A stretch of 64,000 bases of DNA, taken from the NCBI GenBank assembly GCA_963726745.1, contig CAVSDR010000003.1:128001-192000 (forward strand), given 5' to 3'. Positions 1,459 through 63,410 of the stretch are shown here, in pieces (the first letter of the stretch is position 1; every line of letters starts with the position of its first letter). This DNA comes from an uncultured Verrucomicrobiae bacterium. Its GTDB lineage: Bacteria; Verrucomicrobiota; Verrucomicrobiia; Chthoniobacterales; UBA10450. The notes beneath the pieces are model-generated. The model had not been told where the DNA came from. It saw only the letters and a list, made by a program, of their open reading frames with translations, and made no database searches. The position numbers were made by a program, and so were the translations under genes.

Positions 1459-2491
1459 ATGCCGTCGCCGCGCCTGCTTTTCGTCGCGCACGAGATGACG
1501 CTCAGCGGCGCGCCGATCCAGCTCGCCTATCTCGTCCGCTGGCTCGCCGCGCGTGGCTGGGACCTCACTGTGCTCGCCCCGGAACCGGGCGCGCTCGCAA
1601 ACGAACTCGGCGACGCGCAGACGATTTTTGACAGCCACTTGTTAGCCGACCCGGCGCGCGCCCGCTTCCGCGAAGTCCTCCCGCAGTTCGACCTCGTCGC
1701 TCGCGAACACCGTCGCCGCCTGGCAGGCGATCTACACCGCGGATGAGCTCGGCGTGCGCTCGCTTTGGTATCTCCACGAAACCCGGGTCGGCCGCGAGCT
1801 TATGGACCTCATCCCGGTGATCCAGCCGACCCTGGCAAAAGCGCACGCGCTCATCGCGCCCACCCAAACTACCGCCGCAATCTACTCCCCGTTCACCCAG
1901 CGAAAAATCCATGTCGTGCCCTATGGCATCCCGGATTTAGCCGGCAAGATCGCGACGACGAATGCGCGGCTCACTGGCGCGGTTATTGGCACGCTCGAGC
2001 CGCGGAAAGGCCAGGACGTTTTGCTGGCTGCGCTTGCGCTTTTGCCTGCCGCAGAAGTGGCCGTCAAAATCGCCGGGCGCGCGCTCGACCCGGCATTCGT
2101 TAGGCAATTGCCGGCGGATCCGCGGGTGGAATTTCTCGGCGCCTTGGAGCATGCCGCCGCGGTCGGCCTGCTCCGCGCCGCCGACTTTCTCGTGCTGCCG
2201 TCGCGCGACGAGACCATGCCGTTGGTCCTGCTCGAAGCGATGAGCCTGGGAAAACCGATCGTGAGCACGGACGTGGGCGGGATCGCGGAATGGCTCCGTG
2301 ATGGCGAGAACGGCCTCCTCGTTCCGCCTGGCGATCCGGCCGCGCTCGCGGCGGCCCTGCGGCGTTTGCTCGGCGACTCTGCGCTGCGCGCACGTCTCGG
2401 CCGCGCAGCCCGCGCGACTTTCGAGGAGCACTTTGCACTCGAGCGTTACGGCGCACGCATGGCCGCCATCCTCCAGGAGACGCTCGCTTGA
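1459..2491 (+). CDS. GT4 glycosyltransferase, frameshifted near 1700
   Basis: N-terminal HEMTLSGAP continues as VANTVAAW..LWYLHE in another frame; C-terminal GTLEPRKGQD and ETMPLVLLEAMSLGKPIV GT-B motifs. Confidence 0.85.
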
Positions 2492-3931
2492 GACCGGGTT
2501 CCTACGAGGAATGGGTGCGGCGCTACGATACCCTCACGGAGGAGGACCGCGCCTGCTTCCGCGCGGAAGCAGCGCGCCTAACGAGTCCTCCGCGGATCTC
2601 CATCTTGCTGCCTGTTTTCAATCCAGAGCTGCCCTGGTTGCGGGCGGCGATCGATTCCGTAAAGGCGCAGACCTACGCGCACTGGCAACTTTGCCTGGCG
2701 GATGACGCCTCTACGCATGCCGGCGTGCGCGAGTTCCTCCGGGAGATGGCGGCGAGCGACCCGCGCATCCGGCTTGTGTTGCGCGAGCGCAATGGCCACA
2801 TCTCGGCCTGCTCGAATTCCGCGCTCGCGCTGGCCGAGGGCGACTGGTGCGGCTTCCTCGATCAGGACGACCTGCTCGCGGAGCACGCGCTTTCGATGGT
2901 CGCGCGCGAAATTGCCGCTTCTCCCGCCGCGGGCCTGATCTATTCCGACGAGGATTTTCTCGAAGCCAGCGGCGCGCGCACGAACCCCTTCTTCAAGCCC
3001 GACTGGAACCCGGAGCTCTTCCTCGGGCAAAATTACCTGAACCACTTTAGCGTCTACCGCACCGATCTGCTGCGCGCGGTCGGCGGACTGCGCGAAGGCT
3101 TCGAAGGCTCGCAGGATTACGACCTCGCGCTGCGCTGCGCCACCCGCCTGCGGGCGGAACAAATCCGCCACCTGCCGCGCATCCTTTATCACTGGCGCAT
3201 GGTGCCCGGGAGCCTGGCTGCGGCCCGCGACGCCAAGCCCTACGCCAAGGATGCGGCTCGCAAAGCGCTGGCTGATTTTGTCGCAACCCGCGGCTGGCCG
3301 GCGGTGGTCGAGCCTTGCCCGGAAAACGTGGAGTCGCATCGCGTCCGCTTCGCTCGACCCGCGGCGGAAGTAACGCTCCTGCGCCACTGCGGAGGATCCG
3401 CTTCCCGCGACCGGCGTGCTCCTGTTTCTCCGGCCCGACCTCACCCTTCGACCGGAAGAGATTGATGAATTGGCCGCACAGGCGTCGCGCCCGGAGGTTG
3501 GCGTAATCGGCGCGCGCATCTGGTCGGCTAACGACACGCTGGAGCATGGCGGGTATATCATCGGCGAGGGTGTGGCGCGCGATGCGCATCACGGCCTGCC
3601 GCGCGGCCATCCCGGCTTTTTCAATCGCACGTTTCTTCAGCGGAACTGCACCGCGGTCTCGAGCGCCTGCCTCGCGATCCGCGCGGAACTTTTCCATGAA
3701 CTGGGCCAGCCCGGGGGGATCGAACTTTGCCAGCGAGTTCGCGCGCGCGGGCTCGGCGTGGTTTGGACGCCCTATGCGAATCCGGTCGCCGCGGCGCCAG
3801 TGCCCGCCGAATTGCCCGCCACTGCAGGCGAGGAGGATCCCTTCTACAGCCCAAATCTTTCTCTCCAGCCTAACGATCAGTTCGAGCTCGCCTTTCCGCC
3901 GCGCTGGTGGCGCGGCCGCGTCTCGGCCTAA
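2488..3931 (+). CDS. GT2 glycosyltransferase, frameshifted near 3385
   Basis: ISILLPVFN, LADDAS, FLDQDD, IYSDED, FEGSQDYDL; second part VSSACLAIR..DPFYSPNLS lies in another frame (3416-3931). Confidence 0.85.
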
Positions 3932-6489
3932 CGACCCTGCTCGGCCAGGTGGAATTGCGCGAGCTTGCTCCGCTCGACTCCAAAGACGCTCGCCCGCGGC
4001 TCGAAGCGCTCGAGCAAGGCGCCGTAGCGCTCGAGGAAATGCCGCACGAGATCGAGCTCGAAAAGATTCGTGGTGTTAATCATCGAGGTCTCGTGGTGGC
4101 GGTAAAGGCAGAGCGTGTTCGCGACGAAGCCGACCGACTCCTCGCGCTGGGCCAGGCGCAACCACATGTCGTAATCCTCCCAACCGAACCACCCGATCTG
4201 GCTCAGCTCGCTGTCGTAGCCACCCACCTCCAGCAAAGTCGCGCGATGGAAGAGCGCCATCGCGTCGATGTAAGGATGCTGCACCAAAATCTGCGGGTCC
4301 CAATCGTAGTAAGAGAGCAGGCCCACGCGATTCTGCGGCGAACCGCGGAAGCGGCAGAGCAAACTATAGGCAGCGGCATGCGGCCCCGCGGTGATCGTCT
4401 CCATCAGCTGCCGGAAGGCCTGCGGGTAAACCAGGTTGTCCGCGTCCATCATGAAGACGTAGGGCGCGCGGGCATGGCGCAGGCCGACATTGCGCGCGTC
4501 CGCCAGGCCGGTGTTAAATTTTTTCTCGACCACGCGCACCGGCCGGCGGGCGCCCCGCAGGATCGCGAGCGCGCGGGCTAACGAGTGATCGGTCGAGCCG
4601 TCGTCGACGATTACGATCTCGGCTGACGCCGGGAGATGGGCGAGCGCGGCGGTGACGCTGCGGACACACTCGTCGATGTGCTGCGCGTAATTGTAGAGCG
4701 TGATGATGACGGCTAATTCCGGCGCCGGGGCGGTTTGATGGGGCGCGTTGTCGTGCACCACTGCGATCGGTTTTCCCTCTTCCTCGAGCGCGTGCTGCCG
4801 GGCCAGCCGGTCGCGGTAGCCCTGGCGGCGGGCGATCACTTGCGCGCGCGCGGATTGTTCCGCCTGCAGGTCTACCGTCACGCTTTCCGCCGGCGCGGGA
4901 GCAGGCGAGCTACGGAAGCCGAAGAGATCCTCGCGCAACGCCTCGCCCAGAAGCCGGCGGGTGTGGCGCGCGAGATGTTTACGAAGGCCTGGCGAGAGCG
5001 CGGCCGGTGCGGCATCGGCAGTCAGGCGGGGTGCTTTCTCGAGATCGTCCGCATCCGGCGCCTCGATCTCCTGGAGAAACAGGCGGCAAGTTTGGCCCTG
5101 GCGCAGTTCCCGTTCGACAAACTCCCGCCCGGCGCGCGCGATCGCAGCGCATTCCTCGGGATGTGCGAGGTAATACTCACAGGCCGGGATGAGATACTCC
5201 GGGTCGACCATGACGAAGTGCCGCCCGGGCACGAGCGCGCCGTGGCCCTGGCAGGTCTCGGTGATGATGCAGCAGCCATTCGCCAGACCCACGAGCATGC
5301 GGTGCCATTCGAAATATTTCTGCTCCGAGTAATGCACATTCAGCAGGATGCGGGTGTCGCTCAGGAGCTGGTTCCGCGCGGCCGCGTCGAGGTAGCTGCG
5401 GGTCTGTTTCGTCTTCGCGAAGCCCAGCGGCACCAGCCGCAGATGGCAGCGGTGTCGCGAGAAGAAGTCCGCATGTCGCGCGAGAAATTCATCGCGCCGC
5501 GCGGTCATCGCGCCGAGAAAAGTGAGATCGAAAGTGCGCGTGGAATGCGCCCGCGCCCCTTCCCCCTCGAGCATCGGGTGGTAGCCGAGTTGGAGTTGCT
5601 CCGCGGGCAGTTGGCGCTGGCGATAGGCCGCGACGCCCAGCGGATTGATATCGGCCACGCCGCGGGCGTAGTGCGCCCACTGGAGATTGCTGTGAAACCA
5701 GCCGGTCTCTGGTTGCTCAGTGCAGAGCAGGTAAACGCCGCCGGTGAGCCGCCGCGCCTCGGCCCGCGAGAGCTGCTCGCGCAGGAAAAGATTGTAGAAT
5801 TCGTGCGGCGTCAGAACGATCTGGAGCGTGTCCGCGGGTGGCTCCGCTTCCGGGAATTCATCGAGCCGCAGGCGCGCCGCACAGCCGAGCTCACGAAAGC
5901 CGGCTGCGACCAGCTCGCCGATCTCGAGGATGAAAAGATTCGACTTCTTCGTCCCGAAAATCTCCACCCGGCGCGTGCGCGGGGCGGCAGGATCGCGGGC
6001 GGCCGGCAGTGAAACGACCGGGCGCGCGCGCGCCTCGCGCCCGGCGACGAAGCGCTCGAGGTAGGCCACCAGAAAACCGCGCAGATGCGGCAGCCCCAGG
6101 CGTTCCACCAGGCTGAGCGGGTAGGATTGCACCGTCGCGCGCGCGAAAGTCTGCCAGTGCCGCGCCGCGTCCAGCACCTGGAACTCGAGCTCGTTTCGCC
6201 CAAAGCCGAGCTGCAGGTGAAACAGGAAACCGCTCTCCGCCGCCTGCGGCAGATCGGGGAATGCGGCCGCCACATCCGGCCGCTGGCGCTTGCGGCGCGC
6301 GCGCTGGACCACGCGTTTGCGCAACCGCCGGCGCAAGACCGCGCGCAAGCCATGGACCGGCGCGCCGGTGGTCTCGAAAAGCCAGCCGTGCAGCTCGATC
6401 GTTCCGCCGAGGAGGATCTCCGGCAGCGGGCTGTCGAAGCGGAAGCGAAAAGCCTTCGCTGCTTTGTTCTCCCGGGCCGCGACAATCAT
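3928..6489 (-). CDS. Multidomain glycosyltransferase: N-terminal beta module, CgeB/GT-B-like middle, C-terminal GT2
   Basis: ILLNVHYSEQKYFEWHR (CgeB-like); VIITLYNY, IVDDGSTD, MMDADN, GWEDYDMW (GT2). Confidence 0.8.
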   Translation of the reverse strand: MIVAARENKAAKAFRFRFDSPLPEILLGGTIELHGWLFETTGAPVHGLRAVLRRRLRKRVVQRARRKRQRPDVAAAFPDLPQAAESGFLFHLQLGFGRNELEFQVLDAARHWQTFARATVQSYPLSLVERLGLPHLRGFLVAYLERFVAGREARARPVVSLPAARDPAAPRTRRVEIFGTKKSNLFILEIGELVAAGFRELGCAARLRLDEFPEAEPPADTLQIVLTPHEFYNLFLREQLSRAEARRLTGGVYLLCTEQPETGWFHSNLQWAHYARGVADINPLGVAAYRQRQLPAEQLQLGYHPMLEGEGARAHSTRTFDLTFLGAMTARRDEFLARHADFFSRHRCHLRLVPLGFAKTKQTRSYLDAAARNQLLSDTRILLNVHYSEQKYFEWHRMLVGLANGCCIITETCQGHGALVPGRHFVMVDPEYLIPACEYYLAHPEECAAIARAGREFVERELRQGQTCRLFLQEIEAPDADDLEKAPRLTADAAPAALSPGLRKHLARHTRRLLGEALREDLFGFRSSPAPAPAESVTVDLQAEQSARAQVIARRQGYRDRLARQHALEEEGKPIAVVHDNAPHQTAPAPELAVIITLYNYAQHIDECVRSVTAALAHLPASAEIVIVDDGSTDHSLARALAILRGARRPVRVVEKKFNTGLADARNVGLRHARAPYVFMMDADNLVYPQAFRQLMETITAGPHAAAYSLLCRFRGSPQNRVGLLSYYDWDPQILVQHPYIDAMALFHRATLLEVGGYDSELSQIGWFGWEDYDMWLRLAQREESVGFVANTLCLYRHHETSMINTTNLFELDLVRHFLERYGALLERFEPRASVFGVERSKLAQFHLAEQGR

Positions 6490-6525: not shown

Positions 6526-9416
6526 TCACGAATCGAGCTTTCCAAGGCGCGGCGGGAAGGCCAGCTTCCACTGCTCGTTAGGCTCGAGCGAAAGGTTGGG
6601 ATTGTAGTAAGGATCGCGCTCCAGCAGGTCGCCCCAGCGGCGGCGCATGGTCGCGATCTCGCGCAGGAAGCGCCGCTGCTTCTCCGCCGTGTCCTCGACC
6701 CCGCGGCTGGCCGATTCATGATGCCGCAGCTCGGCGTGCGGCGTCCAAACGATGCGCAACCCGGCGGCGCGCAGGCGCAGGCAGAAGTCGACATCGTTGA
6801 AAGCCACCGGCAATTCCGTTTCGTCGAGGCCACCAAAGCGCTGGTAAATTTCCTTCCGCAGGACCAGGCAGGCGCCGGTGACCGCGGAAAAATTCTGCGT
6901 GAGATGCGCGCGCCCGAAATAGCCGTGCTCGCGCCGCACGCCGGCATGCGCATGCGTGGCCACGCCGCCCACGCCCAGGAGCACGCCGCCGTGCTGCATC
7001 GTGCCGTCGGGATACCAGAGCCGCGCGCCGACTGCGCCAATCTCCGGCCGGAGCGCGTGGCTCACCATTTCGCGAAGCCAGCCGGCGTGCATCGCCTCGA
7101 GGTCGTTGTTCAGCAGGCCAATGACCTCGCCGCGCGCCTGCGCGACGCCGAGATTATTTAGCCGGCTAAAGTTGAACTCGCCGGCTACTGGAAGCACGCG
7201 CACGCGCGGGTGGCGCGTCAGCTCCTCGAGCAGCGCGCGCGTTTCCGCTTCGCGGCTTTCATTGTCCACGATCAAAATCTCGAAGGGCGCGTAATCAGTT
7301 TTAGCCAGCAAGCTCTCCACCGCTTGCTGCAACAAATCCGCCCGGTCGCGCGTGGGAATAATGAGCGTAACCAACGGCGGCGCCGCCGGCAGTGGGTGAA
7401 TCACGCGCAAGTAATGCGCGTAATGCGGTTCCACGCGCGCGTCCACGCCGCGGCGTTGCCAATGTTCCGCGACTGCGCGCACCGCCGCCTCTTGCGCATA
7501 CGGCTTCGCGCCGGCGACCGCGGCCGTGCTCTCGCCGGCGCTGCGCCAATGGTAGAGCACGCGCGGAATATGCTCGATCTGCGCAGGCTCGATCTGCTCG
7601 GCGCAGCGGAGGACAAGGTCGTGGTCCTGCGAGCCTTCAAAACCGAGCCGAAAGCCCCCCACCGCCGCACCAGTTCCGTCCGGTAGACGCCAAGATGGGA
7701 AACGTAATTTTGCGCGCAGAGCAGGTCGGGATTCCAATCGCTCTTGAAGTAGGGATCGGTCCGGCGGCCCTGCGCATCGAGCTTGTCCTCGTCGCTGTAG
7801 AGCAGCTGGAGCCCGGGCGTTTGCTGCAGCGCGAGCGCGTTGCAGTAGAGCGCGAGCGGCGCGAGTTCGTCGTCGTGATCCAGCAGAGCAATGAACTCGC
7901 CACGGGCCATCGCGAGGGCGTCATTCGAGGCCGCGGAGATGTGGCCATTGTGCTCGCGGCGATGGAAACGAATCCGCGGGTCGCCCCGGGCCGCGCGCAA
8001 GAGTTCGCGCGCCACGCGCGGATCGGTCGAGGCGTCGTCGACCACGCAGAGTTCCCAATGCGGGTAAAGCTGCGCGCGCACGGAAGCGAGTGCGCGCCGG
8101 AGCCAGCGCACCTCGGGATTGTAGACCGGCAGCAGGACCGAGAAGAGCGGAGGCGACGACCAGCCGGCAATTTGCGCGCGCATCTTCGTGCTTTCCGCAC
8201 TCGTTAGGCGGTCATACAGCGCGATCCACTCGGCGTAGTTGCCGACCGCTTCGGTCGCATCGCTTTGCCGGCGGGACACGAGTGCGCCGCGCATCGGCGT
8301 GGTGAAAAACGTCTCCCATTTCCCCGCTTCGCTCCGCGCCTCGAGCAGGAACTGGCGGCGACCCCACGGTATTGTTGCCTCCAACCGAAAACCACAGCGC
8401 AAGGCAGCTGCGCCGCGTTCGTTGGCCACGGCCACATCGGGCCGGAGAATGCCGTAGTGCGCCGGAAAAATCTTCCGGCCGAGGCGCCCGCGCAGTTCCG
8501 CGACGTCCGGTCCGCTCCTGGCGAAACACCAGCCAGCAACATGGAGGTGACGCTGCGGCGCGGACCAGTCCGTCGGCCGATCGATCCAAAAGTTAAAGCG
8601 CGAACCGGCGGCCGCATCCGGTGCAAACAGGAGCGCATCCTCGGCGCTCAGCGGCTCCGGCACTGCGCCCGTGCCTTCGACCTCGCCCAGGAAAAATGGG
8701 TGCCAGCCGCCGCGCACCAGCAACGCCTCCAACCGGAGCGCGTGCCGGCCGCGCGGCACCTCCACCGCGACGGCAAACCCGGCCGCGCCTGCGCCTTCCT
8801 TCCCGGGAAAAATAGCCGGCAAATCCTCTCGCGGCAGCCCGTGGCGCCCAGGGAAAACGCGCTCGTCCACCCGCGCGCGCACGCCGGCGATGGGCGATCC
8901 TTCGTGCGGCAAGCACCAGCCCGCCAGAAATTGCCGGCTCGCCGGCGCGGCCAGATTGGCCGGCCGATCGAGGTGAAAAGCGAAGCGCATACTGGCTTCG
9001 CGTTCCTCGAGCGCGCGCCAAAGTTTCCGCTCCGTCGCGCTCTCTCGCAGCGGCCCGCGCACGTCGCAGGCGAAGGCTTTTTGCCACGCGCCGTCGGCCC
9101 GCGCGACCTGCAGTTCCAGCCGCCCGCGGCCGAAGGGCACGACCACATCCACGGTGAAGCCGCACCAGCGCGGCGCGTCCGGCAGGGCCAAATAGGCAGC
9201 CACTTCGGGCCGCGCGCGATCGAAGACGCCGGGGAAAATTTCCCCACGCAAGCGCGCGCGGAGACGGACAAGCGGCGCCCCGTGTTTCGCCACGCACCAG
9301 CCGGAAAGCCGGAGCCGGCGGACGCGTTGCGACCAATCCCGCGGCTCGTCCAGCCAGAGATGAAACTTCCGCGAAACCTGCGCGCGCGCGTTTTCGGGAA
9401 GCGGGAAATTCTGCAC
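6526..9416 (-). CDS. Large double-GT2 glycosyltransferase with three N-terminal repeats, frameshifted near 7660
   Basis: FSVLLPVYN, VVDDAS, LLDHDD, YSDEDK in ORF 7401-9416; continues GGFRLGFEGSQDHDL, LIIPTRDR, LLNNDLE, AFNDVDFCL in ORF 6526-7737; the break lies next to a C-homopolymer. Confidence 0.85.
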
Positions 9417-9428
9417 GGAAGAGCGCGC

Positions 9429-10256
9429 CTAACGAGCCGGCTTGCGGGCGAGCAACTGGAAGCCCGCGGCGATCGCGCCCTGCAGCTCCGGCGCGAGATT
9501 TTGCAGCGCGGCAAAGCCCGGCGGCGGCTCGCCGCGGTGCCGCCAAAAATCGGCCCACTCCTGCAGGCTGCTGTCGCCGAGGAGGAATTGCTCGCGCGCG
9601 GAGAGGCCGGATTGCGCCGCGGTGTGGAGGACGTTTGAGAGGAGAAAGCTGAGCATCACCCCGGGCCCGAAGTTGCCGCTAACGGAACAGCTATCGATCT
9701 CGAAAGCGGCGAACCATTCGCGCACGCCAAACTCGGTCGCGTTGTAATAATGATGCGGCGCCTCGTGGAGCGACTGGAGGAAGGCGGTGTGAATCGCGAC
9801 GCTCCCGCCGGGCTTGAGCACGCGCCGAATTTCCGCGGCCGCGGTGCGTGGATCGCGCAGATGCTCGAAGACGTTGAAGGCAAAGACGCGGTCGAAGGTG
9901 TCGTCGCGAAACGGAAGCGCGTGCGCATCGCCGACCACGTCGGTGTGGCGAAAGATTTTGTATTCGAACTCAATGCAATTCGGCGAGCGGATGGCCGTCG
10001 CGCCGGCACCGATGTTCAGGACGAACTCGCGGCCCTCGCGCAATATCGCTTCGAACTCGGGGCCAATCGGATTGCTCGCGTGGTCCAAGGGTGCGACCAC
10101 CGGCGTTTCCGCGATGAAAACCGGCACGCCATCGTGATGCCGAAAATGATGCTCTCCGCCGGCGCAGACCAGCCGCTCAGCCTCGCGGCGCAGCGATTGC
10201 CGGCAGACCGGGCAGGCCAGAATTTCTGCGAGGCGCGCATTCGTTTCTCTCGCCAT
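9429..10256 (-). CDS. Methyltransferase type 11 with N-terminal Trm112-like Zn motif
   Basis: LACPVC..L..C N-terminus; VLNIGAG, GDAHALPF, FEHLRDP, VLKPGG. Confidence 0.85.
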   Translation of the reverse strand: MARETNARLAEILACPVCRQSLRREAERLVCAGGEHHFRHHDGVPVFIAETPVVAPLDHASNPIGPEFEAILREGREFVLNIGAGATAIRSPNCIEFEYKIFRHTDVVGDAHALPFRDDTFDRVFAFNVFEHLRDPRTAAAEIRRVLKPGGSVAIHTAFLQSLHEAPHHYYNATEFGVREWFAAFEIDSCSVSGNFGPGVMLSFLLSNVLHTAAQSGLSAREQFLLGDSSLQEWADFWRHRGEPPPGFAALQNLAPELQGAIAAGFQLLARKPAR

Positions 10257-14407: not shown

Positions 14408-15872
14408 ATGCGCAGGACCAAAATCATCTGCACGCTCGGCCCGGCCACGGAGGACTCCGAGACGCTACGCCTCCTCATGCTCCAGGGCGCGGATGTCTTC
14501 CGCTTGAACATGAGCCACGCGACCCACGAGTGGGTGCGCGAGATCGTGCCCCGCATCCGTCAAATCGCGACTGAAGTCGGCCGCACCATCGCCATCCTGC
14601 TGGATACCCAGGGCCCGGCGATCCGCACGGGCGATGTGAAGACCGATCTCCAGCTCCAGCCCGGCGACATCCTTGAACTCACCGTGCGCGGCGCGAAGAG
14701 CGAGGAAACTTATTCCGTCGACGTGAACTACGACGGCCTGGTGAACGACATCGCCGCCGGCGACACCGTCTTAGTCGACAATGGCGTGATCGAGATGCTG
14801 GTGCTGGAGAAGCAGAACAATCGCATCCGCTGCAAGGTCCTCACTCCGGGCACGCTCGGCTCGCGCCGGCACATCAATCTCCCCGGCGTGCGGGTCAACC
14901 TCCCACCGCTCACGACCAAGGATATGAACGACGTGCGTGTGGGCGCGGAGGTCGGGGTGGACTTTGTGGCGCTCAGTTTCGCGCGGCAACGCAGCGACGT
15001 CGAAGAGCTCCGGCGGGTGATGGAAATGCTCGGGAGCCGTGCGCAGATCGTGGCCAAAATCGAGGATCAATCCGCGGTCGCGCAGATCGACGAGATGATC
15101 GAGGCGGCCGACGTCATTCTCGTGGCCCGGGGCGATCTCGGAATCGAGTGCCCGATGGAAGAGTTGCCGATCATCCAGCGGAAGATCGTCAAGCAATGCC
15201 TCCATTTTGGGAAGCCGGTGATCGTGGCCACGCACATGCTCGAGTCGATGATCGAGAACCCGGTGCCGACGCGCGCGGAAATTACCGATGTGGCCAACGC
15301 GGTCTTCGAGCAGGCGGATGCGATCATGCTGAGTGGGGAAACGACCGTGGGCCGCTACCCGGTGCGCTGCGTGGAAGTGTTCGACCGTGTGGCCCGGCGC
15401 ATCGAACGGAGCGGCGGCGCGGGCTACGCCGGCGAGGCGGAGCTGCGGGACTTCCGTCAGAAGACCGTCGCCTCCGCGGTGATGCTGGCCAACTCGCTGC
15501 CAAACGCGAAGATCATCGTCTTTACCCGGCACGGCACGATGGCGCGCTACGTCTCGAATCTTGCGACCGGAAGCAGCGGATATTTTTGCCTTCACCCCGA
15601 GCGAGCACGTCTGGCGGCAGCTCGCGCTTTCCTGGGGCGTCTACCCCGTTTTGTTGGAGTTCACCGGCGATCCAAACTCGACCATTGAAGCGGCGGAGAC
15701 GTTTCTCCGCGAATCCAGCCTAACGAATGCAGGCGACAACCTGGTCGTCATCACCGACCTCCGGGCCGGGAGCGCGCAGATCGATTCCATCCAGGTGCGG
15801 CAGGCGCGCGGGGACGGCGAGAATCACGACGCGGCGGCGCCTTTGAGCGACGCGGAGTCGATGATGGACTAG
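14408..15872 (+). CDS. pyk: Pyruvate kinase, frameshifted near 15560
   Basis: RRTKIICTLGPA, RLNMSH, LDTQGPAIRTG, VARGDLGIE, IMLSGET; C-terminal domain in ORF 15561-15872. Confidence 0.95.
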
Positions 15873-24389: not shown

Positions 24390-24399
24390 GCGGCAGCGC

Positions 24400-36222: not shown

Positions 36223-36261
36223 TCCGCGCACCTTTCTCCGAAAACCGCCCGCTGCAAAACG

Positions 36262-42248: not shown

Positions 42249-42265
42249 ATAATCGCCGTTACCAG

Positions 42266-54500: not shown

Positions 54501-55941
54501 GACCGCGCCCGCCAGCGGCACCTTCTCCATCACCACCGCGGGGAGTAACTTCGACACCACGCTCGGCGTTTACACCGGCAGCGCGGTCAACGCCCTCACC
54601 CTCATCGGCGGCGACGACGACAGCGGCCCCGGCGTCACCAGTCTGGTCACTTTCAACGCCACCGCCGGGGTCACTTACCAGATCGCGGTCGATGGCTACA
54701 GCGGCGCGTCCGGCAGCATCTCGCTGGCTCTTTCGCCGCCGGTCGCACCGCCCGCGAACGACAACTTTGCCAGCGCCTTCACCCTCACCGGCGACGCTCC
54801 GAGCACCAGCGGCACGAATTTGAGCGCCACCCGGGAACCCGGCGAGCCGAACCACGCGGGCGACCCCGGCGGGCACTCCGTCTGGTGGCGCTGGACCTCC
54901 ACGCGGACCGGCTACGTCTCCGTCTCCACCGCCGGGAGTAACTTCGACACGCTCCTCGCGGTCTACACCGGAAGCGCAGTCAACGCCCTCACCCTCGTGG
55001 CCGCGAACGACCAGGCAAACGACACCGACCAAAGCCAGCTCGTCTTCGCCGCTACCGCCGGGGTGGAGTATTTCCTCGCGGTCGATGGCTGGGCCGGCGG
55101 CCAGGGGAACGTCGCCCTTGCGCTCAATGGTCCGCTGCCGCCGCCGCAGGTCACCCTCTTCACCCTCGACGATTCCGCGGCCGAGCGCCCGCTCGATTCC
55201 GCCCGCTTCTACCTCTCGTTAGCCGACGCCCAGCCGCAGCCGGTCACGGTCGGCTTCACCGTCGGCGGCAGCGCTACCCCCGGGGTCGATTACACTCTCG
55301 ACGCGCCGCTGAGCGGCAATACCGGGAGCGTGACTTTCGCCCCTAACGAGACCATCAAGATGGTCACGCTCACCCCGTTGCCGGATGGCGACTTCACCGA
55401 GTTCGACGAAACCATCGTGCCCGCGCTCGTCGGCGGGAGCGGTTACGTCGTCGGCAATCCCGCCACCGGCGCGGTCATCACCCTGCACGACGACACCCCT
55501 TACAACGCCGCCTGGGCCCAGCTCTTCGCCCCCGCTTTCACCGGCCTCGCGACCCATCCGCTGGCTGATTTCTCCGGCAACGGCGTGGCCAACCTCCTCG
55601 TCTTCGCCTTCAACGGCGACCCGCGTTCCGCCAGCTTGCTCGACCTTAGCGGCCAGCCGCTTCTCCCTGTTGCCGGCACCGCCCTCCTGCCCGATCCCGC
55701 CGATGGCAATCTGCTCAAGCCCTACGCCACCCTCACTTTCAACCGCCGCACCGACGCCCCGCAGCTCTCTTACCTGGTGGAAACAGCCGACAACCTCACC
55801 GGCCCGTGGAGCACCGACGCCGTCCTGGCGAGCGTCACCACCACCGGTCTCCCGCCCGGCATCGAGCGCGTCACCTACCGCGCCGCGCAGCCCTTGCCCG
55901 CGCCCCGCAAATTCCTGCGCGTCCGCCTCACCGCGCCGTAG
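51544..55941 (+). CDS. Large secreted endonuclease I (Bsn-type) protein with Calx-beta-like, jelly-roll and four PPC-like repeat domains
   Basis: WNREHLWP, DLFH, RGNL.F, RGDIARALFYM, NRNPFIDHP; in-frame signal peptide upstream of the called start; four PxND.F..SVWW.WT..DT.L.VYTG..AVDG repeats. Confidence 0.85.
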   Translation, partial: VKALVLLASCLLASAPFSLRADPPPGYYDSAQGLSGGALKAALHERIKGQTVIPYVSILDPLRVLYEDPADPHNILLVYSQTSVSKSSSSWNREHLWPRARGDSDQAGPDDSDLFHVVPADTSVNNVRGNLYFDESNPNDPGYVIPAAPLAPQTSRDSDSWQPAPSERGDIARALFYMEVRYDGTEPNTTDMELVSYPPSGSQMANLNTLLLWNEQDPPDDAERRRNDLIFSDYQHNRNPFIDHPEWVQAIWGVGTPNGTGTQPIAQVTALSASATELPTTSANVQISLNQFAGSSGVTVFFTVSGTATAGADYNLTGQNVNFDPASGSGSCFIPANYNSAVLTLVPVADGIAEPAESATITLASGMNYTIVPGAAATVTITDTPALPASWNFDAVPYPNPLPATSGFGSISFSGWGGTVTNFSGTSGNALALVGPGGNNTFIDFRFSMQGFISLHIAFATRGTASGYDTGRWSFSVDGANFTTLANINTASRSATFVQRAVDFSAYSELDNAPNVTLRYTLSGATGSAGNNRIDDFSITATSAATGDQLRTVQIAASDASASETGDPGVFAIRINGVANPGGLAVGFTLSGSATAPGLANADYELDGAFTYDPATRKGTIVIPEGAGTALLRILPIADTFVEGTETIVCTIDPRPGDYLVGAVSSALINLFEPPPNDQFASALTVPAGGGGLSGNNLEASAEAGEPLHAGYAGGRSVWWNWTAPSSGSVTISTAGSSFDTLLAVYTGDAVNALTVVASDTNSGGQLTSAVRFATVAGTTYRIAVDGYGGATGNINLTVTPSANAPIRPANDNFASNIVLTGNTPSTSASNDYATKEASEPNHAAIAGGKSVWWRWTALYSGSTVVSTSGSNFDTLLAVYTGPGLGSLALVASNNDYSGTTSRVTFNAVAGTTYFLAVDGNYASSGTVALSVTGFAPPPPNDNFVNGLVLTGTNPSASGTNAGATKETGEPNHANNSGGKSVWWRWTAPASGTFSITTAGSNFDTTLGVYTGSAVNALTLIGGDDDSGPGVTSLVTFNATAGVTYQIAVDGYSGASGSISLALSPPVAPPANDNFASAFTLTGDAPSTSGTNLSATREPGEPNHAGDPGGHSVWWRWTSTRTGYVSVSTAGSNFDTLLAVYTGSAVNALTLVAANDQANDTDQSQLVFAATAGVEYFLAVDGWAGGQGNVALALNGPLPPPQVTLFTLDDSAAERPLDSARFYLSLADAQPQPVTVGFTVGGSATPGVDYTLDAPLSGNTGSVTFAPNETIKMVTLTPLPDGDFTEFDETIVPALVGGSGYVVGNPATGAVITLHDDTPYNAAWAQLFAPAFTGLATHPLADFSGNGVANLLVFAFNGDPRSASLLDLSGQPLLPVAGTALLPDPADGNLLKPYATLTFNRRTDAPQLSYLVETADNLTGPWSTDAVLASVTTTGLPPGIERVTYRAAQPLPAPRKFLRVRLTAP

Positions 55942-56083: not shown

Positions 56084-56815
56084 ATGCACCGCTTCCACCT
56101 TCCGCCTAACGACTGGTCCGCCACCCCGCTCCGTCTCCGCGGCCCCGAGGCGCGCCACGCCCGCACCGTCCTCCGCCTCGAGCCCGGCGCGAAGCTGGTC
56201 CTCTTCGACGGCCACGGCCGCGAAGCCACCGCCGAGATCACCGCCACGGAAAACCGCGAAATTAGCCTGCGCCTTCTGCACGAGACCCGCACCCCGCCGC
56301 TCCGCTGCCGCATCACCCTCGGCCAGGCCATTCCCAAGGGGAAAAACATGGACTTGATCGTGCAGAAAGCGGTCGAGCTCGGCGCGGCCGCGATCGTTCC
56401 GCTGCTCTCCGATCGCACCATCGTCCGGCTCGACCCGGCCGACGCCGCGGCCAAGCAGGCGAAGTGGCAGCAGATCGCGGTCGAGGCGGCCAAGCAATGC
56501 GGCCAGAATTGGCTCCCGGAAGTGCAGACCCCGCGCAGCCTCGCCGATTTCTTCGGCGCGCGCCCGCGCTTCGACCTCATGCTCATCGGCTCGCTGCAAA
56601 GCGACGCCCGCCACCTCCGGCAAATCCTCGCCGAGACCGCCACCCCGCCCGCCAGCGTCCTCATGCTCGTCGGCCCCGAGGGCGACTTCACCCCCGCCGA
56701 GCTCGGCCTCGCCAAGACCCACGGCTGCCGCCCGATCACCCTCGGCCCCATCATCCTCCGCGTGGAGACCGCCGCGCTCTATTGCCTGAGCGTCCTTTCC
56801 TACGAGCTGCTTTAG
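56084..56815 (+). CDS. rsmE: 16S rRNA m3U1498 methyltransferase
   Basis: H..TVLRL, KAVELG, EAAKQCG, VGPEGDF, LGPIILRVETA. Confidence 0.95.
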   Translation: MHRFHLPPNDWSATPLRLRGPEARHARTVLRLEPGAKLVLFDGHGREATAEITATENREISLRLLHETRTPPLRCRITLGQAIPKGKNMDLIVQKAVELGAAAIVPLLSDRTIVRLDPADAAAKQAKWQQIAVEAAKQCGQNWLPEVQTPRSLADFFGARPRFDLMLIGSLQSDARHLRQILAETATPPASVLMLVGPEGDFTPAELGLAKTHGCRPITLGPIILRVETAALYCLSVLSYELL

Positions 56816-58722: not shown

Positions 58723-58727
58723 GCCCG

Positions 58728-61008: not shown

Positions 61009-61112
61009 GCGCACGCTTCCTCGATCGAGCACTGCACCCGTAAGGCGGGTGTTTTGAGGCTTGTCGACACCTTTGCCCTGCCGCTAGACTGCCGCTCAGC
61101 AGGAGAGGGCAA

Positions 61113-63410
61113 ATGGTAGCAAAGTGCTGGACCGGCGAAGAAGGCCGCGGCGTGCAAGCGCAGCGCGCGGAAACAACTTTGCATGGCCCGCGCCGGTTGC
61201 GATCGCGCGGACAGAAGCCCGTCGGCCTTTGCGCGGCGCTCGGGGCCTTGCTTGCGCTCGCGCCGATCACCGCCCGCGCAGTCCTGGAAGAGTGGACCGG
61301 CTTGTCCGGAACCGGCTCGAATTTTTCGGACGACGCCAACTGGAGTGATGGCAGCGCCCCGGCGAGCAATCTTTCCTTCACCGACGTGAGATTCGGACAG
61401 GTGACCTCAGCGTTCGCCTGGCGAAACCCGAATGTGGATGGGCCCTACATGGTCCACAGTGTCGGCTTTTACTCGAACGCGCCGGAGTATGTCTTTTACG
61501 GCACGACGTTGAAGGTCGGCACCGGCGGCATCAGTAATCAATCTTCCGCTCTCAACCAGGAGTTCGTCTGCCCGGTCGACTTTAGCGGAGTCGCTAATAG
61601 CAGCGTGAGCGTGGGCAACTCGAATGGCTTCCTTCGATTCACCGGCGCGACCACGCGGCCCACGGGCACACTGACGGTCGATACCATCGGATCGGTCCGG
61701 TTCAACAGCCTGGGCGGCTCGAGTTCCAGCGGCCTGACGAAGCAGGGCATCGGCACGCTTTACTGCACGTTCTCCGGCAGTGTGGGAGGCACTTTGGCGG
61801 TGAGCGGCGGCCGGCTTGAGACTGGCACGGCTTCGGGCACGGATGTCTTTACCAGCACAGGCGCGATCTCCGTTTCCGCATCGGGCGAGTTGGTCCTGAA
61901 TCGCAACCTGACCCTGGACGGAGCCACGCTCACCGTTATCACCATTGGCAACCTGCAGATTGCTTCCGGCAAAACGCTCCGGGTGCAGAACGGCGGAAGC
62001 GTTTCGCTCACCGGCACGAACGATCGCGTATTCAGCAGTGCAAACGTCGTCGTGACCGGCCCGGGATCCTCCTTTGTCAGTTCGGGAAACACCACCTCCT
62101 TTCCCGGCAGCACGGTCAGTGTCCAGGCAGGCGCCAGTTTCTCCGGTAATCTCATCACGTTCGCAGGGACGAATCTCTCGAGCCTGACGGTGTCCGGCGC
62201 CGGCTCCACCGCCACGGCCTCGCTCTTGAGACTGAACGGGGGGAACGGCACCGCCACCTTCAACCTTGGAAGCAGCGGAAGTTTCACCGCGGTCGAGATC
62301 GGGATGGCGGCGCCGAGCGCCAATGGCTCGCTGCAGGTGCAGGGCGGAGCGTCGGTGGTTGCAGACTCGTTAGGCGTGGCGGCGACGGATGCTTCCGGCA
62401 CAGGCAGCGTGACTGTTTCCGCCACTGGCTCGCAGCTGGCCGCGACCGGCGCGATCACGATCGGCAGCGCGAACAACAGCAGCGCCATGCTGACGGTGCA
62501 GAATGGCGCGTTCCTCACCACGGGCACTTCCACGCAGATCAATGCCACCGGGACGTTGAACATTCAGGCCGGCGGCACGCTCCGCGGCGCCTCCAGCTAC
62601 ACCGGCGTGGGATCCGTCATGCTGGCGGGTAATTTGCAGCCAGGGATGCCGTCGGGGCCGGATCGGACCAGGAGCATCAGCTTTGCGCAGAGCATCGCTT
62701 TCCAATCCACCAGTCACACGACCATGGAGCTGGCCGGGACGACGGCTGGGACGGATTACGACCAGATCACCTTCAACGGCGGCGGCCTCGCGCAGGTGAC
62801 CTGGGACGGCACGCTCAACGTCGTGCCCATCCTCGGATTCATTCCGCAGAACGGCGACGTCTTCGACCTCTTCAACTTCGACCCGGCGAAGGCGTTCGGC
62901 GCGTTTGCCACGATCAATCTTCCCGCGCTCCCGTCCGGCCGCTTTTGGCGCAACAATCTCTACAGCGATGGCACTCTGCGCGTCAGCTCCGTCCCGGACA
63001 GTTACGCCGAGTGGCAGATCGCCTACGGCACCGGCGCCTTCGAGCTCGATGACGACAACGATGGCATTCCCAACGGCGTCGAGTTTCTGCTTGGGACAAA
63101 TCCGAAGTTTTCCAGTGCCTCGCCCTTGCGCGAACTTGCTCCCGTTGTCGTCGGGTTCAATCTCCAGGTCGGCATGACCTTCCAGATGCCGCAGACGCCT
63201 GCGGCCGACGCGCGCTATCGCATCGAAGGCAGCGACGACATGCGCACGTGGCGCGAGATCGCGAGCAAGGACGGCGCGGGGCCGTGGAGCGGCACGGCCA
63301 GCGTTGCCACGGCCGCGCCCGTCGCGGGCTATGTGCAGGTCACGGTCACGGAGATGCGCACCTTCTCGACCGTGCGGCGTTTCCATCGGCTGGTCGCGGC
63401 GCTCCCGTAG
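61113..63410 (+). CDS. Secreted autotransporter-passenger-like beta-helix protein with Verrucomicrobia-type C-terminal domain
   Basis: Signal-like LCAALGALLALAPITARA; WTG..NFSD..NW, LTKQG.GTL and G/S/T-rich repeats; C-terminal DDDNDGIPNGVEFLLGTNP..RRFHRLV; start uncertain. Confidence 0.7.
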   Translation: MVAKCWTGEEGRGVQAQRAETTLHGPRRLRSRGQKPVGLCAALGALLALAPITARAVLEEWTGLSGTGSNFSDDANWSDGSAPASNLSFTDVRFGQVTSAFAWRNPNVDGPYMVHSVGFYSNAPEYVFYGTTLKVGTGGISNQSSALNQEFVCPVDFSGVANSSVSVGNSNGFLRFTGATTRPTGTLTVDTIGSVRFNSLGGSSSSGLTKQGIGTLYCTFSGSVGGTLAVSGGRLETGTASGTDVFTSTGAISVSASGELVLNRNLTLDGATLTVITIGNLQIASGKTLRVQNGGSVSLTGTNDRVFSSANVVVTGPGSSFVSSGNTTSFPGSTVSVQAGASFSGNLITFAGTNLSSLTVSGAGSTATASLLRLNGGNGTATFNLGSSGSFTAVEIGMAAPSANGSLQVQGGASVVADSLGVAATDASGTGSVTVSATGSQLAATGAITIGSANNSSAMLTVQNGAFLTTGTSTQINATGTLNIQAGGTLRGASSYTGVGSVMLAGNLQPGMPSGPDRTRSISFAQSIAFQSTSHTTMELAGTTAGTDYDQITFNGGGLAQVTWDGTLNVVPILGFIPQNGDVFDLFNFDPAKAFGAFATINLPALPSGRFWRNNLYSDGTLRVSSVPDSYAEWQIAYGTGAFELDDDNDGIPNGVEFLLGTNPKFSSASPLRELAPVVVGFNLQVGMTFQMPQTPAADARYRIEGSDDMRTWREIASKDGAGPWSGTASVATAAPVAGYVQVTVTEMRTFSTVRRFHRLVAALP

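What the first reader, a model, noticed from the sequence alone, without database searches (positions are those of the whole stretch)
2096..62375. The motif is spelled by rare codons inside conserved protein motifs, in several reading frames
Seen in sequence: the sites read as S-L-G via TCG TTA GGC in panB GDSLGM (32350), OmpA TDSLGS (30878), nuclease-ligase GYSLGKAQ (46467) and PilB ADSLGT (27172). They read as P-N-D/E via CCT AAC GAN (28393, 43354, 53568, 54360, 56104), as L-T via CTA ACG (2576, 15718, 23096, 39396), and as V-R via GTT AGG (2096, 17221). TTA, CTA and AGG are otherwise rare in these GC-rich genes. The two paralogous GT2 genes both carry it at the homologous NLSL.PN[DE]Q position (3868 and 6574). 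Not every SLG or PND uses it (e.g. PND near 51955 is CCG AAC GAT). Inference: the signal acts at DNA level and is accommodated by synonymous choice, the molecular-drive signature known for DUS/USS.
Basis: partly seen in the sequence, partly recalled or inferred. Interest (0 to 1): 0.75.

Follow-up and report, generated by a model that had tools for sequence, protein, structure and literature searches.

The report
Hyper-abundant DNA word overriding codon choice
An uncultured soil bacterium and almost its whole family have written one ten-letter DNA word about a thousand times through their genes, stop codons and spacers against their own codon habits, a pattern otherwise known from the "self" tags that Neisseria and Haemophilus use to recognise their own DNA.

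Summary
All 17 cited sites carry the word BTCGTTAGGC in the stated frames.

- **Abundance:** the 9-mer occurs 1312 times in the 3.4-Mb genome against about 24 expected.
- **Symmetry:** it is strand-symmetric and shows no replication polarity.
- **Frames:** 978 sites lie in the four stop-free frames. Another 175 supply a gene's TAG or TAA stop, and 156 are fully intergenic.
- **Codons and peptides:** 58% of S-L-G tripeptides are spelled TCG-TTA-GGC against 0.5% expected. The peptides themselves are 1.6-2.45x in excess, so the accommodation is not only synonymous.
- **Conservation:** sites are kept in word-rich relatives (13 of 19, baseline 10-15%). They decay to baseline in equally diverged word-poor ones (2 of 21).
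- **Distribution:** the word is enriched in most sampled genera of one Chthoniobacterales family and in no sampled genome outside it.
- **Other words:** two further unrelated words occur in the family, TTAGCCRRC (here) and AAGATCGACA.

Best reading is an uptake-sequence-like self-recognition word. Function is untested and terminator pairs are absent.

This scan has already noted the same core, CGTTAGGC, in Gemmatimonadaceae genomes. I could not verify that here.

The parts
258..266 (+). Word TCGTTAGGC in the spacer between convergent genes
2097..2105 (+). Word in GT1 gene 1754-2491(+), read F-V-R (GTT AGG)
2576..2584 (-). Word antisense in GT2 gene 2488-3465(+), read R-L-T-S (CTA ACG)
3868..3876 (-). 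Word antisense in ORF 3416-3931(+), the GT2 C-terminal half, read Q-P-N-D
3926..3934 (-). Word supplying both the TAA stop of ORF 3416-3931(+) and the TAG stop of gene 3928-6489(-)
6575..6583 (+). Word antisense in GT2 gene 6526-7662(-), read E-P-N-E. Homologous to the site at 3868.
8201..8209 (+). Word in a stretch without a called gene. Its TAG closes a 278-codon open frame.
9427..9435 (-). Word supplying the TAG stop of methyltransferase gene 9429-10127(-)
12078..12086 (+). Word antisense in gene 11938-13086(-), read G-L-T-S
12625..12633 (-). Word in gene 11938-13086(-), read S-L-G
13355..13363 (-). Word in a spacer by my final gene calls
13799..13807 (-). Word in the spacer upstream of the pyruvate kinase gene
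15718..15726 (-). Word antisense in small ORF 15651-15872(+), read S-L-T-N
16406..16414 (-). Word in gene 15869-17290(-), read S-L-G
17221..17229 (-). Word in gene 15869-17290(-), read L-V-R
23096..23104 (-). Word antisense in MacB/FtsX gene 21064-23484(+), read R-L-T-T
24398..24406 (-). Word supplying the TAG stop of sulfotransferase gene 24400-25128(-)
27173..27181 (+). Word in PilB-like ATPase gene 27005-28690(+), read D-S-L-G-T. Shared with 7 close relatives.
28393..28401 (-). Word antisense in the PilB-like gene, read M-P-N-E. Most relatives read PNQ or PSE here.
30878..30886 (-). Word in OmpA-family gene 30644-31705(-), read T-D-S-L-G-S. Word-poor relatives read DSFGS or DSIGS.
32350..32358 (-). 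Word in panB 31708-32496(-), in the conserved G-D-S-L-G-M
32894..32902 (-). Variant TCGTTAGGG in HPPK gene 32490-32984(-), read L-V-R
36448..36456 (+). Word in LysE gene 36190-36909(+), read S-L-G
37562..37570 (-). Word in gene 36920-37801(-), read S-L-G
37906..37914 (+). Word antisense in gene 37808-38437(-), read R-L-T-S
39396..39404 (-). Word antisense in amidase gene 38531-40225(+), read C-L-T-K
41049..41057 (-). Word in DUF885 gene 40212-41939(-), read S-L-G
43354..43362 (-). Word antisense in DUF6600 gene 42245-43765(+), read Q-P-N-E
45858..45866 (-). Word in nuclease-ligase gene 44310-46985(-), read S-L-G
46467..46475 (-). Word in the nuclease-ligase gene, read G-Y-S-L-G-K
46769..46777 (+). 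Word antisense in the nuclease-ligase gene, read G-L-T-S
53568..53576 (-). Word antisense in the 1410-aa Endonuclease_1 gene 51709-55941(+), read P-N-D
54360..54368 (-). Word antisense in the same gene, read P-N-D
55341..55349 (-). Variant (TCGTTAGGG) antisense in the same gene, read P-N-E
56104..56112 (-). Word antisense in RNA methyltransferase gene 56084-56815(+), read P-N-D
62367..62375 (+). Word in gene 61113-63410(+), read D-S-L-G-V

Best explanation
BTCGTTAGGC is a genome-wide DNA word read as double-stranded DNA by a sequence-specific factor that has not been identified. It most probably works like the DNA uptake-enhancing sequences (DUES) of Neisseriaceae and Pasteurellaceae.

**Proposed mechanism (inferred, not shown).**
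1. A surface or periplasmic receptor of the type IV pilus / Com machinery binds fragments carrying the word.
2. DNA from the cell's own kind is therefore taken up preferentially through secretin, ComEA and ComEC.
3. The DNA is recombined through DprA and RecA.
4. Any mutation that creates a word is over-transmitted, a molecular drive.
5. The word accumulates wherever the coding sequence tolerates it.

**Where the word ends up (shown).**
- In the four stop-free frames, as S-L-G, x-L-T, P-N-D/E and x-V-R.
- At gene ends, where its TAG or TAA becomes the stop codon.
- In spacers.

**Consequences (shown).** The word recruits otherwise rare codons (TTA, CTA, AGG, CCT). It also shifts amino acids at weakly constrained positions.

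**Shown:** the anatomy, the statistics, the conservation pattern and the taxonomic range. **Inferred:** uptake and the receptor.
For: - **Abundance.** TCGTTAGGC occurs 1312 times against 24 expected from base composition. CTCGTTAGGC is the commonest 10-mer in the genome, 820 against 7.7.
- **Not a mobile-element copy.** Only positions -2 to +7 around the core are conserved.
- **No polarity.** 631 sites on + and 681 on -. There is no link to GC skew, and cumulative orientation matches permutations on the two megabase contigs (P 0.57, 0.20).
- **Frames and codons.** All six frames are used as coding allows: 978 in CDS, 175 as stop codons, 156 intergenic. 455 of 784 S-L-G use TCG-TTA-GGC (0.55% expected). 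254 of 401 P-N-D/E use CCT-AAC (4.9% expected). Encoded peptides are raised 1.6-2.45x, matching the approximate doubling reported for true uptake sequences (PMC2817400, abstract).
- **Maintenance.** At about 72% protein identity, G000's sites are identical in word-rich G013 and G024 in 13 of 19 cases (baseline 10-15%). Where the peptide is the same, it is 11 of 11 (baseline 21-29%). In word-poor G019 and G002 it is 2 of 21.
- **Spacing.** Sites avoid each other below 200 bp (observed/expected 0.2-0.46).
- **Absent from flexible DNA.** The four largest word-free stretches (21-35 kb, three of them at lower GC) hold O-antigen-type glycosyltransferase clusters, exosortase loci and secreted proteases.
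- **Family range.** Enrichment is seen in most of the 34 sampled genera of the family, up to 4336 copies in 3.2 Mb. Among the 300 other Verrucomicrobiota genomes sampled, it is enriched in none outside the family. DUS and USS are also family-wide (bioRxiv 10.1101/2025.10.24.684340, Introduction).
- **Uptake genes.** ComEC, DprA, a small HHH (ComEA-like) protein, three secretins and PilB/PilC/pseudopilin genes are present.
Against: - No member of this family is known to me to be transformable, and nothing here tests uptake.
- About half of true DUES lie in terminators, mostly as inverted pairs (10.1101/2025.10.24.684340, abstract). Here only 2 inverted pairs lie within 60 bp, and close pairs of any kind are depleted.
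- No ComP_DUS-family protein was found. The best hit is 21.9 bits against a cut-off of 27.3, and the hits are ordinary prepilin-like proteins.
- ComEC is intact in word-poor genus-mates too, so word density does not track the uptake channel.
- Unrelated words share genomes: TTAGCCRRC with the main word in G000, and AAGATCGACA with it in genus g18. Known DUS dialects instead differ by a few letters.
- Earlier notes of this scan report the same core in another phylum, which is odd for a private self tag. I could not verify this.
- The uptake genes found are widespread in non-competent bacteria (controls).
Confidence: 0.45

Rival explanations
1. A HIP1-like word. An intracellular reader, such as an orphan DNA methyltransferase coupled to repair or a chromosome-organising protein, creates or selects the word without sequence-specific uptake.
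For: - HIP1 of cyanobacteria is similarly 15- to 300-fold over-represented and conserved within and between ORFs (PMC5861425, abstract).
- Alternative words replace HIP1 in some lineages, together with their methyltransferases (PMC4390886, abstract start in the listing).
- That resembles the several words seen in this family.
- Conservation in word-rich lineages only fits any lineage-specific reader.
- The lack of terminator pairs fits this reading at least as well as uptake.
Against: - The words here are non-palindromic and 9-11 nt long, unlike HIP1.
- No Vsr-type repair nuclease was found in a 94.7% complete genome.
- By my own reasoning, not a computation, a repair bias acting at a single position cannot give a roughly 50-fold excess.
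- HIP1 itself is now proposed to be an uptake-recognition sequence (PMC13756078, abstract), so this rival may merge with the main reading.
Confidence: 0.25
2. A self tag for an intracellular nuclease, recombination or defence system. It would be a non-polar analogue of Chi that marks resident DNA as own and spares it.
For: - The word is absent from lower-GC flexible islands.
- It is spread through the core genome at about one per 2.6 kb.
- It is maintained in some lineages and lost in others.
Against: - Known Chi and KOPS-type signals are polar with replication (recalled). This word is not.
- I know of no non-polar system of this kind.
- Self-avoidance below 200 bp is not predicted.
Confidence: 0.12
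3. Integron-related. The word contains GTTAGGC, which fits the integron core-site consensus GTTRRRY, so the sites could be relics of, or targets for, cassette recombination.
For: - GTTAGGC fits GTTRRRY by inspection. The consensus appears in 25 papers (listing only).
Against: - G000 has no integron integrase. The best TIGR02249 hit is 80 bits against a cut-off of 265.
- attC-like inverted pairs at 40-160 bp number 7, against 8-9 for the other orientations and about 20 expected.
- Three quarters of sites lie inside conserved core genes such as panB.
Confidence: 0.03
4. No DNA-level signal. The excess is a by-product of amino-acid motifs, codon bias or base composition.
For: Some sites lie in peptides conserved far beyond the family, such as panB GDSLGM and PilB DSLGT.
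Against: - 0 of 100 dinucleotide shuffles reach the observed window count.
- The same word appears in four frames on both strands, in spacers and as stop codons.
- Outside the family the same peptides use other codons.
- In the sampled Verrucomicrobiota genomes outside this family, the word is rarer than its reversed control in nearly all.
Confidence: 0.01

Closest known systems
DNA uptake-enhancing sequences: DUS of Neisseriaceae and USS of Pasteurellaceae
   Same: - A 9-10-nt non-palindromic word present in hundreds to thousands of copies.
- Both strands are used equally.
- It sits inside genes in permissive frames.
- Encoded tripeptides are roughly doubled.
- It is missing from flexible or acquired DNA.
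- The distribution is family-wide.
- Sites are conserved.

Sources; PMC2817400 abstract; 10.1101/2025.10.24.684340 abstract and Introduction.
   Different: - A different phylum (Verrucomicrobiota, Chthoniobacterales by the titles), and uncultured.
- No terminator-type inverted pairs.
- 13% of sites serve as stop codons.
- No ComP-family receptor.
- Unrelated additional words occur in the same genomes.
- Uptake is untested.
HIP1 (GCGATCGC) of cyanobacteria
   Same: - Strongly over-represented.
- Written through genes.
- Conserved between genomes.
- Replaced by other words in some lineages.
- Function long unknown and now linked to transformation.

Sources: PMC5861425 and PMC13756078 abstracts.
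   Different: - HIP1 is a palindromic octamer recognised by known methyltransferases.
- The word here is non-palindromic and longer, and nothing is known about its methylation.
- I did not test 10-90 kb periodicity.
Chi and KOPS-type polar chromosomal motifs
   Same: A short, over-represented chromosomal word with a possible 'self' meaning.
   Different: - Those motifs are oriented with replication (recalled). This word shows no polarity.
- Its enrichment, about 54-fold for a 9-mer, is far higher.
The CGTTAGGC word noted by this scan in Gemmatimonadaceae (earlier notes, unverified)
   Same: - The same eight-letter core.
- Also written into genes, stop codons and spacers against codon habits, according to notes e1-7736590 and e1-8062223.
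   Different: - A different phylum.
- Here the word is one to two letters longer at its 5' end: T in 97% of sites, preceded by C, G or T.
- My one attempt to find word-dense contigs from distant lineages found none.

Membership tests
DUES (DUS/USS) | Short (9-12 nt) non-palindromic word in hundreds to thousands of copies, far above chance | tested here: met
   1312 copies against 24 expected. CTCGTTAGGC is the commonest 10-mer.
DUES (DUS/USS) | Both orientations equally frequent, no replication polarity | tested here: met
   631 on + and 681 on -. Permutation tests give P 0.57, 0.20, 0.86 and 0.03 on four contigs.
DUES (DUS/USS) | Intragenic copies confined to permissive frames, with encoded tripeptides raised about two-fold | tested here: met
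   Four stop-free frames are used. SLG 1.61x, PND 1.79x, PNE 2.45x. Benchmark from PMC2817400 abstract.
DUES (DUS/USS) | Depleted in recently acquired or flexible DNA | tested here: met
   4 gaps of at least 20 kb against 0.6 expected. Three of the four have lower GC, and they hold polysaccharide, exosortase and secreted-protease loci. Recent acquisition itself was not shown.
DUES (DUS/USS) | Family-wide distribution with related dialects | tested here: inconclusive
   The family-wide distribution is met. The alternative words (TTAGCCRRC, AAGATCGACA) are unrelated in sequence and co-occur with the main word, unlike dialects.
DUES (DUS/USS) | A large share of copies lie in transcription terminators as inverted repeats | tested here: not met
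   Only 2 inverted pairs within 60 bp. Pairs are depleted in all orientations at 40-160 bp.
DUES (DUS/USS) | A cognate receptor (ComP in Neisseria, ComN predicted in Pasteurellaceae) | tested here: not met
   ComP_DUS (PF16732) best hit is 21.9 bits against a cut-off of 27.3. The hits are generic prepilin-like proteins. ComN was not searched.
DUES (DUS/USS) | The word enhances DNA uptake or transformation | not testable with these tools
   The lineage is uncultured. Only the general machinery (ComEC, DprA, secretins, pilus ATPases) is shown to be encoded.
HIP1-type words | Palindromic octamer | tested here: not met
   TCGTTAGGC is not its own reverse complement (inspection).
HIP1-type words | Recognised by cognate DNA methyltransferases | not testable with these tools
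   No methylome data. Only one public run held part of the window, and only as contigs.
HIP1-type words | Sites conserved between genomes beyond the neutral expectation | tested here: met
   13 of 19 against a baseline of 10-15% in word-rich relatives.
Chi / KOPS polar motifs | Orientation bias along replichores | tested here: not met
Integron core site (GTTRRRY) | Integron integrase present and sites paired with an inverse core as attC | tested here: not met
   TIGR02249 best hit is 80 bits against 265. There are 7 attC-like pairs against 8-9 in the other orientations.
REP / MITE-type dispersed repeats | Conserved sequence or structure extending beyond the short core | tested here: not met
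   Flanks beyond 10 nt are at background composition over 1567 sites.

The most novel reading that the evidence does not exclude
This soil family carries a changeable set of independent word-and-reader systems. There are at least three unrelated hyper-abundant words with different, overlapping distributions. One word is very young: TTAGCCRRC is enriched in only 3 of 25 genus members. One reader specificity (core CGTTAGGC) may be shared with Gemmatimonadaceae, as earlier notes of this scan report. That would make DNA self-recognition a modular trait that can move horizontally between soil phyla, rather than a fixed peculiarity of two pathogen-rich families.
Probability: 0.15. Interest if true: 0.9.

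Novelty: new variant of a known kind. Interest (0 to 1): 0.7.

Why it matters
**Why the lineage matters.** Sequence-specific self-DNA recognition by hyper-abundant words is established for only two bacterial families (10.1101/2025.10.24.684340, Introduction). It has recently been proposed for cyanobacterial HIP1 (PMC13756078, abstract). A third or fourth case in an uncultured soil family of Verrucomicrobiota would suggest that such systems are widespread in soil. It spans 34 sampled genera, reaches 4336 copies per genome, and has further words arising and spreading.

**Testable handles it gives.**
- The very narrow distribution of the second word is an ideal contrast for finding its reader by gene-presence correlation.
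- Adding the word to donor DNA is an obvious thing to try when genetic tools for these bacteria are developed.

**Practical consequences.**
- 28% of all TTA codons are dictated by the two words, and about 6% of all stop codons by the main word, rather than by translation. This matters for codon-usage models and gene calling.
- Word-free stretches flag flexible islands.

I found no paper that links uptake sequences to this phylum. One search found 3 papers holding both terms, none on this topic by title. One search found the word itself only in unrelated primer and oligo contexts among the 20 titles listed of 130.

Tried and rejected
- **Chi/KOPS-like polarity.** Rejected.
- **Integron link.** No integrase and no attC-like pairs.
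- **ComP-type receptor.** Only sub-threshold hits to generic prepilin-like proteins.
- **Vsr-type repair nuclease.** None found in a 94.7% complete genome.
- **Loss of competence in word-poor relatives.** ComEC is intact in 32 of 34 genus members. It was not found in G451 (86% complete) and is split in G005. The idea is not supported.
- **A 'dialect' in word-poor G019.** The enriched octamers proved to be local tandem arrays, not dispersed words. I withdrew that idea. Word-poor G002 showed no strong replacement word in 89 kb.
- **Prophage test.** No HK97 capsid or Terminase_6N hit in G000, so I could not ask whether resident phage DNA carries the word.
- **Population variation.** One soil run held 14% of the sampled words, as contigs only. 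I did not lay it.
- **Cross-phylum check.** Of the 80 loci, 54 have a PanB 69-82% identical to G000's. The 16 with a distant PanB (39-61%) hold at most one other copy of the 8-mer. Ten gave no PanB hit. This neither confirms nor excludes the earlier notes on Gemmatimonadaceae.
- **Same-gene peptide counts** go in the expected direction but are too small to weigh. SLG plus PN[D/E] total 23 in G000 against 10 in word-poor relatives, and 21 against 24 in word-rich ones.
- **Gene caller.** My first two versions missed panB. The figures given come from the third version.

Full report
**What the motif is.** The finding does not spell the motif, but its codons imply CGTTAGG / CCTAACG.
- That 7-mer occurs 36 times in the window. 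Dinucleotide-preserving shuffles give 3.24 (maximum 9), and 0 of 100 reach 36.
- The window is G000:C3:128001-192000 of a 3.41-Mb, 7-contig, 64% G+C assembly that is 94.7% complete.
- Aligning all 1567 genomic core sites gives the word B-T-C-G-T-T-A-G-G-C. T precedes the core in 97% of sites and C follows it in 86%. The letter before the T is C, G or T in 98%.
- Flanks beyond that are at background composition. These are therefore not copies of a longer repeat.
- TCGTTAGGC occurs 1312 times against about 24 expected from base composition. CTCGTTAGGC (820 against 7.7) is the commonest 10-mer of the genome.

All 17 cited sites are present in the stated reading frames.
- ORF 3416-3931 aligns with the C-terminal half of GT2 gene 6526-7662 at 38% identity, E 5e-32. 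The word sits at the homologous PNLSL[Q/E]PN[D/E]Q position in both.
- The quoted exception, PND at 51955 spelled CCG AAC GAT, is correct.
- By my gene calls the 36 window sites divide as follows:

| Reading | Sites |
|---|---|
| S-L-G | 11 |
| P-N-D/E | 8 |
| L-T | 7 |
| V-R | 3 |
| Stop codon | 3 |
| Spacer | 4 |

**Genome-wide codon accounting.** No annotator was on hand, so I wrote a codon-usage gene caller. The third version gives 3126 genes and 89% coding. The figures depend on it.
- 988 of the 1312 sites lie in genes: 454 as S-L-G, 232 as x-L-T, 226 as P-N-D/E and 76 as x-V-R. None lies in the two frames that would read TAG or TAA.
- TTA is 2.8% of Leu codons overall but 64% within S-L-G.
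- 455 of 784 S-L-G tripeptides (58%) are TCG-TTA-GGC, against 0.55% expected from codon usage. 254 of 401 P-N-D/E (63%) begin CCT-AAC, against 4.9%.
- The 9-mer holds 14.9% of all TTA codons, 15.6% of CTA, 8.1% of AGG and 5.6% of CCT.

**Beyond synonymous choice.**
- The encoded peptides are in excess over amino-acid composition: SLG 1.61x, PND 1.79x, PNE 2.45x. Their reversals give GLS 0.90, DNP 0.94 and ENP 1.33.
- Orthologs show both routes. PilB DSLGT and panB GDSLGM are conserved far outside the family with CTN Leu codons, so the word there is a silent change. OmpA reads DSFGS or DSIGS and PilB reads PNQ or PSE in relatives without the word, so there the protein differs.
- The two 'forbidden' frames are used at gene ends. 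175 of 1312 sites supply a stop codon, and 21 of these end two convergent genes at once (TAA on one strand, TAG on the other).
- That is 62.7 per 1000 gene ends against 0.96 per 1000 internal codons. Window examples are 3927 (both genes), 9428 and 24399.
- Only 156 sites (12%) are fully intergenic, at a density (0.42 per kb) close to that in genes (0.32 per kb).

**Orientation and spacing.**
- The word is on + 631 times and on - 681 times. It is unrelated to local GC skew.
- The cumulative orientation excursion is within permutations on four contigs: P = 0.57, 0.20, 0.86 and 0.03. This excludes a Chi- or KOPS-like polar signal.
- Sites avoid each other at short range. Observed over expected is 0.24, 0.20 and 0.46 for gaps of 0-50, 50-100 and 100-200 bp. 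There is an excess at 0.4-1.6 kb.
- Only 8 pairs lie within 60 bp (about 30 expected), and only 2 of them are inverted. The terminator-type inverted repeats that hold about half of true DUES (10.1101/2025.10.24.684340, abstract) are therefore missing.
- Four gaps exceed 20 kb, where 0.6 is expected. The two largest have 59-60% G+C; the other two are at about 63%, near the genome average. They hold O-antigen-type glycosyltransferase, DegT, Wzy and Wzz clusters, exosortase loci, secreted subtilases and hypothetical proteins.

**Conservation.** I fetched regions syntenic with the window from four genus-mates that are equally diverged from G000, with mean protein identity 71-73% over 21-28 genes.

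| Relative | Word status | G000 sites kept as identical 9-mers | Baseline for other 9-mers | Kept where the peptide is the same |
|---|---|---|---|---|
| G013 | rich | 6 of 8 | 14.8% | 5 of 5 (baseline 29%) |
| G024 | rich | 7 of 11 | 10.1% | 6 of 6 (baseline 21%) |
| G019 | poor | 0 of 10 | 12.7% | 0 of 2 |
| G002 | poor | 2 of 11 | 12.3% | 1 of 4 |

- Conversely, 6 of 15 and 7 of 19 of the relatives' own sites are shared with G000, so there is also turnover.
- The word is thus actively maintained at silent positions in some lineages and decays to neutrality in others.

**Taxonomic range.** The nearest named records are uncultured Chthoniobacterales / Verrucomicrobiae MAGs (titles).
- In a draw of 40 relatives, all 24 genus-mates are enriched. 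They carry 138 to 2412 copies against reversed-word controls of about 30 to 120. The 16 genomes of other families of the order have 1-19 copies, below the control in nearly all.
- That tally includes two unpublished genomes (G001, G008). Without them it is 22 of 22.
- In an even draw of 300 other Verrucomicrobiota genomes at least 80% complete, CGTTAGGC is enriched in only one (G335, same family, 2140 against 332). Nearly everywhere else it is rarer than its control.
- In a draw of 120 genomes from 34 genera of the family, most genera are enriched, up to 4336 copies in 3.2 Mb (G380). Genera g17 and g181 and most of g165 are at control level. That draw includes the unpublished G337 and G341, on which no claim rests.

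**Further words.**
- Under an order-3 Markov expectation, G000 has a second family of enriched words, WWTTAGCCRRC. TTAGCCRRC has 1139 sites, 575 on + and 564 on -, mostly in genes and in several frames.
- With it, 28% of all TTA codons are explained.
- It is enriched in only 3 of the 25 genus members sampled: G000 1139 against control 190, G011 485 against 170, G015 354 against 211.
- It is derived. Of 14 G000 sites in aligned orthologs (31 comparisons), none is shared, 7 differ silently and 24 coincide with amino-acid differences.
- A third word, AAGATCGACA(W), is dispersed and strand-symmetric in G087. It reaches 4653 copies in G335.
- It is abundant in genera g18, g164, g168, g172, g180, g17 and g190. 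It is near background in G000's genus and in g162, g183 and g176.
- Genus g18 carries both the first and the third word, and g17 carries only the third.
- An apparent fourth word in G019 proved to be tandem arrays, and I withdrew it.

**Machinery.**
- G000 encodes ComEC (193 bits), DprA (253 bits), a 103-aa HHH_3 protein (29.3 bits against a cut-off of 27) and three secretins.
- In the window it encodes two PilB-like ATPases, PilC and a pseudopilin.
- These genes are common in non-competent bacteria, as the control genomes in the same calls show.
- ComEC is intact in 32 of 34 genus members, including word-poor ones (the tally includes the unpublished G001, G008 and G449).
- No ComP_DUS-family protein, no Vsr and no integron integrase was found.

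**Interpretation.** Coding, composition, mobile-element copies, polar chromosomal signals and integron sites are excluded or very unlikely. What remains is a double-strand DNA word that is created and kept by a lineage-specific process.
- The only mechanism established to produce this whole syndrome is biased uptake plus recombination, as in DUS and USS. The syndrome is a 50-fold excess, strand symmetry, permissive-frame use, doubled tripeptides, absence from flexible DNA and a family-wide range. I put that at 0.45.
- The points against are the missing terminator pairs, the co-existence of unrelated words and the lack of any functional test.
- A HIP1-like intracellular reader is the main rival (0.25). 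HIP1 itself is now argued to be an uptake signal (PMC13756078, abstract).

**Earlier notes of this scan.** Several notes report the same core, CGTTAGGC, hyper-abundant in Gemmatimonadaceae. One equates it with the integron core site.
- I tested the integron idea in this genome and found no support.
It found no word-dense distant contig. The cross-phylum identity remains a lead that I did not verify.

**Papers.**
- PMC2817400, PMC5861425 and PMC13756078: abstracts and outlines only.
- 10.1101/2025.10.24.684340: abstract and Introduction.
- PMC4390886, PMC3630211 and the GTTRRRY papers: search listings only.
- That Chi and KOPS are polar, and that ComP is the DUS receptor beyond what the cited Introduction says, is recalled knowledge.

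Noticed in passing
whole genome G000; window examples at 25137-27005 (PilB-like) and elsewhere: A second hyper-abundant dispersed word, WWTTAGCCRRC, has 1139 sites and is strand-symmetric. It is written as L-A-x and in other frames. It is enriched in only 3 of the 25 genus members sampled and is derived in G000.
   Followed up: yes
L016:1-13683; L103-L108 (G087:C1:1-120000); family table: A third unrelated word, AAGATCGACA(W), reaches 4653 copies per genome in other genera of the family. It co-occurs with the main word in genus g18 and stands alone in g17.
   Followed up: partly
window 2488-3931: GT2 ORF 2488-3465 and ORF 3416-3931 together look like one two-part glycosyltransferase split by a frame change near 3416-3465. 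Reading them in one frame gives 5 stops. Both parts match the single gene 6526-7662. This could be a real frameshift or an assembly error.
   Followed up: partly
window 51709-55941: A 1410-aa protein with an N-terminal Endonuclease_1 domain plus Calx-beta and PPC domains. It is a candidate extracellular nuclease (inferred from the domains), in a genome whose DNA looks tagged for recognition. It carries three copies of the word.
   Followed up: no
window 44310-46985: An 891-aa fusion of a beta-CASP/RMMBL-type nuclease region with a complete ATP-dependent DNA ligase (N, M and C domains). It carries three copies of the word.
   Followed up: no
whole genome G000: Stop-codon usage by my gene calls is unusually even for a 64% G+C genome: TGA 1097, TAG 1097, TAA 931. 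The 7-mer core of the word supplies 105 TAG and 138 TAA stops.
   Followed up: partly
L095-L097 (G019:C31:10001-59553): Local tandem arrays built from units like GGATTNAC(A/G)GGATT, and a recurring ACGGGATTC(C/T)TCGACT element, occur in a word-poor genus-mate. Their nature is unknown.
   Followed up: partly
L119-L198 (metagenome contigs): The panB G-D-S-L-G-M copy of the word persists on many contigs of this family that otherwise carry almost none, for example one site in 20 kb on L174. It may be an old relic or a specially protected site.
   Followed up: no
window 7663-9428: My gene caller finds no gene in this stretch. The word at 8202 supplies a TAG that closes a 278-codon open frame, so a gene may have been missed.
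   Followed up: no
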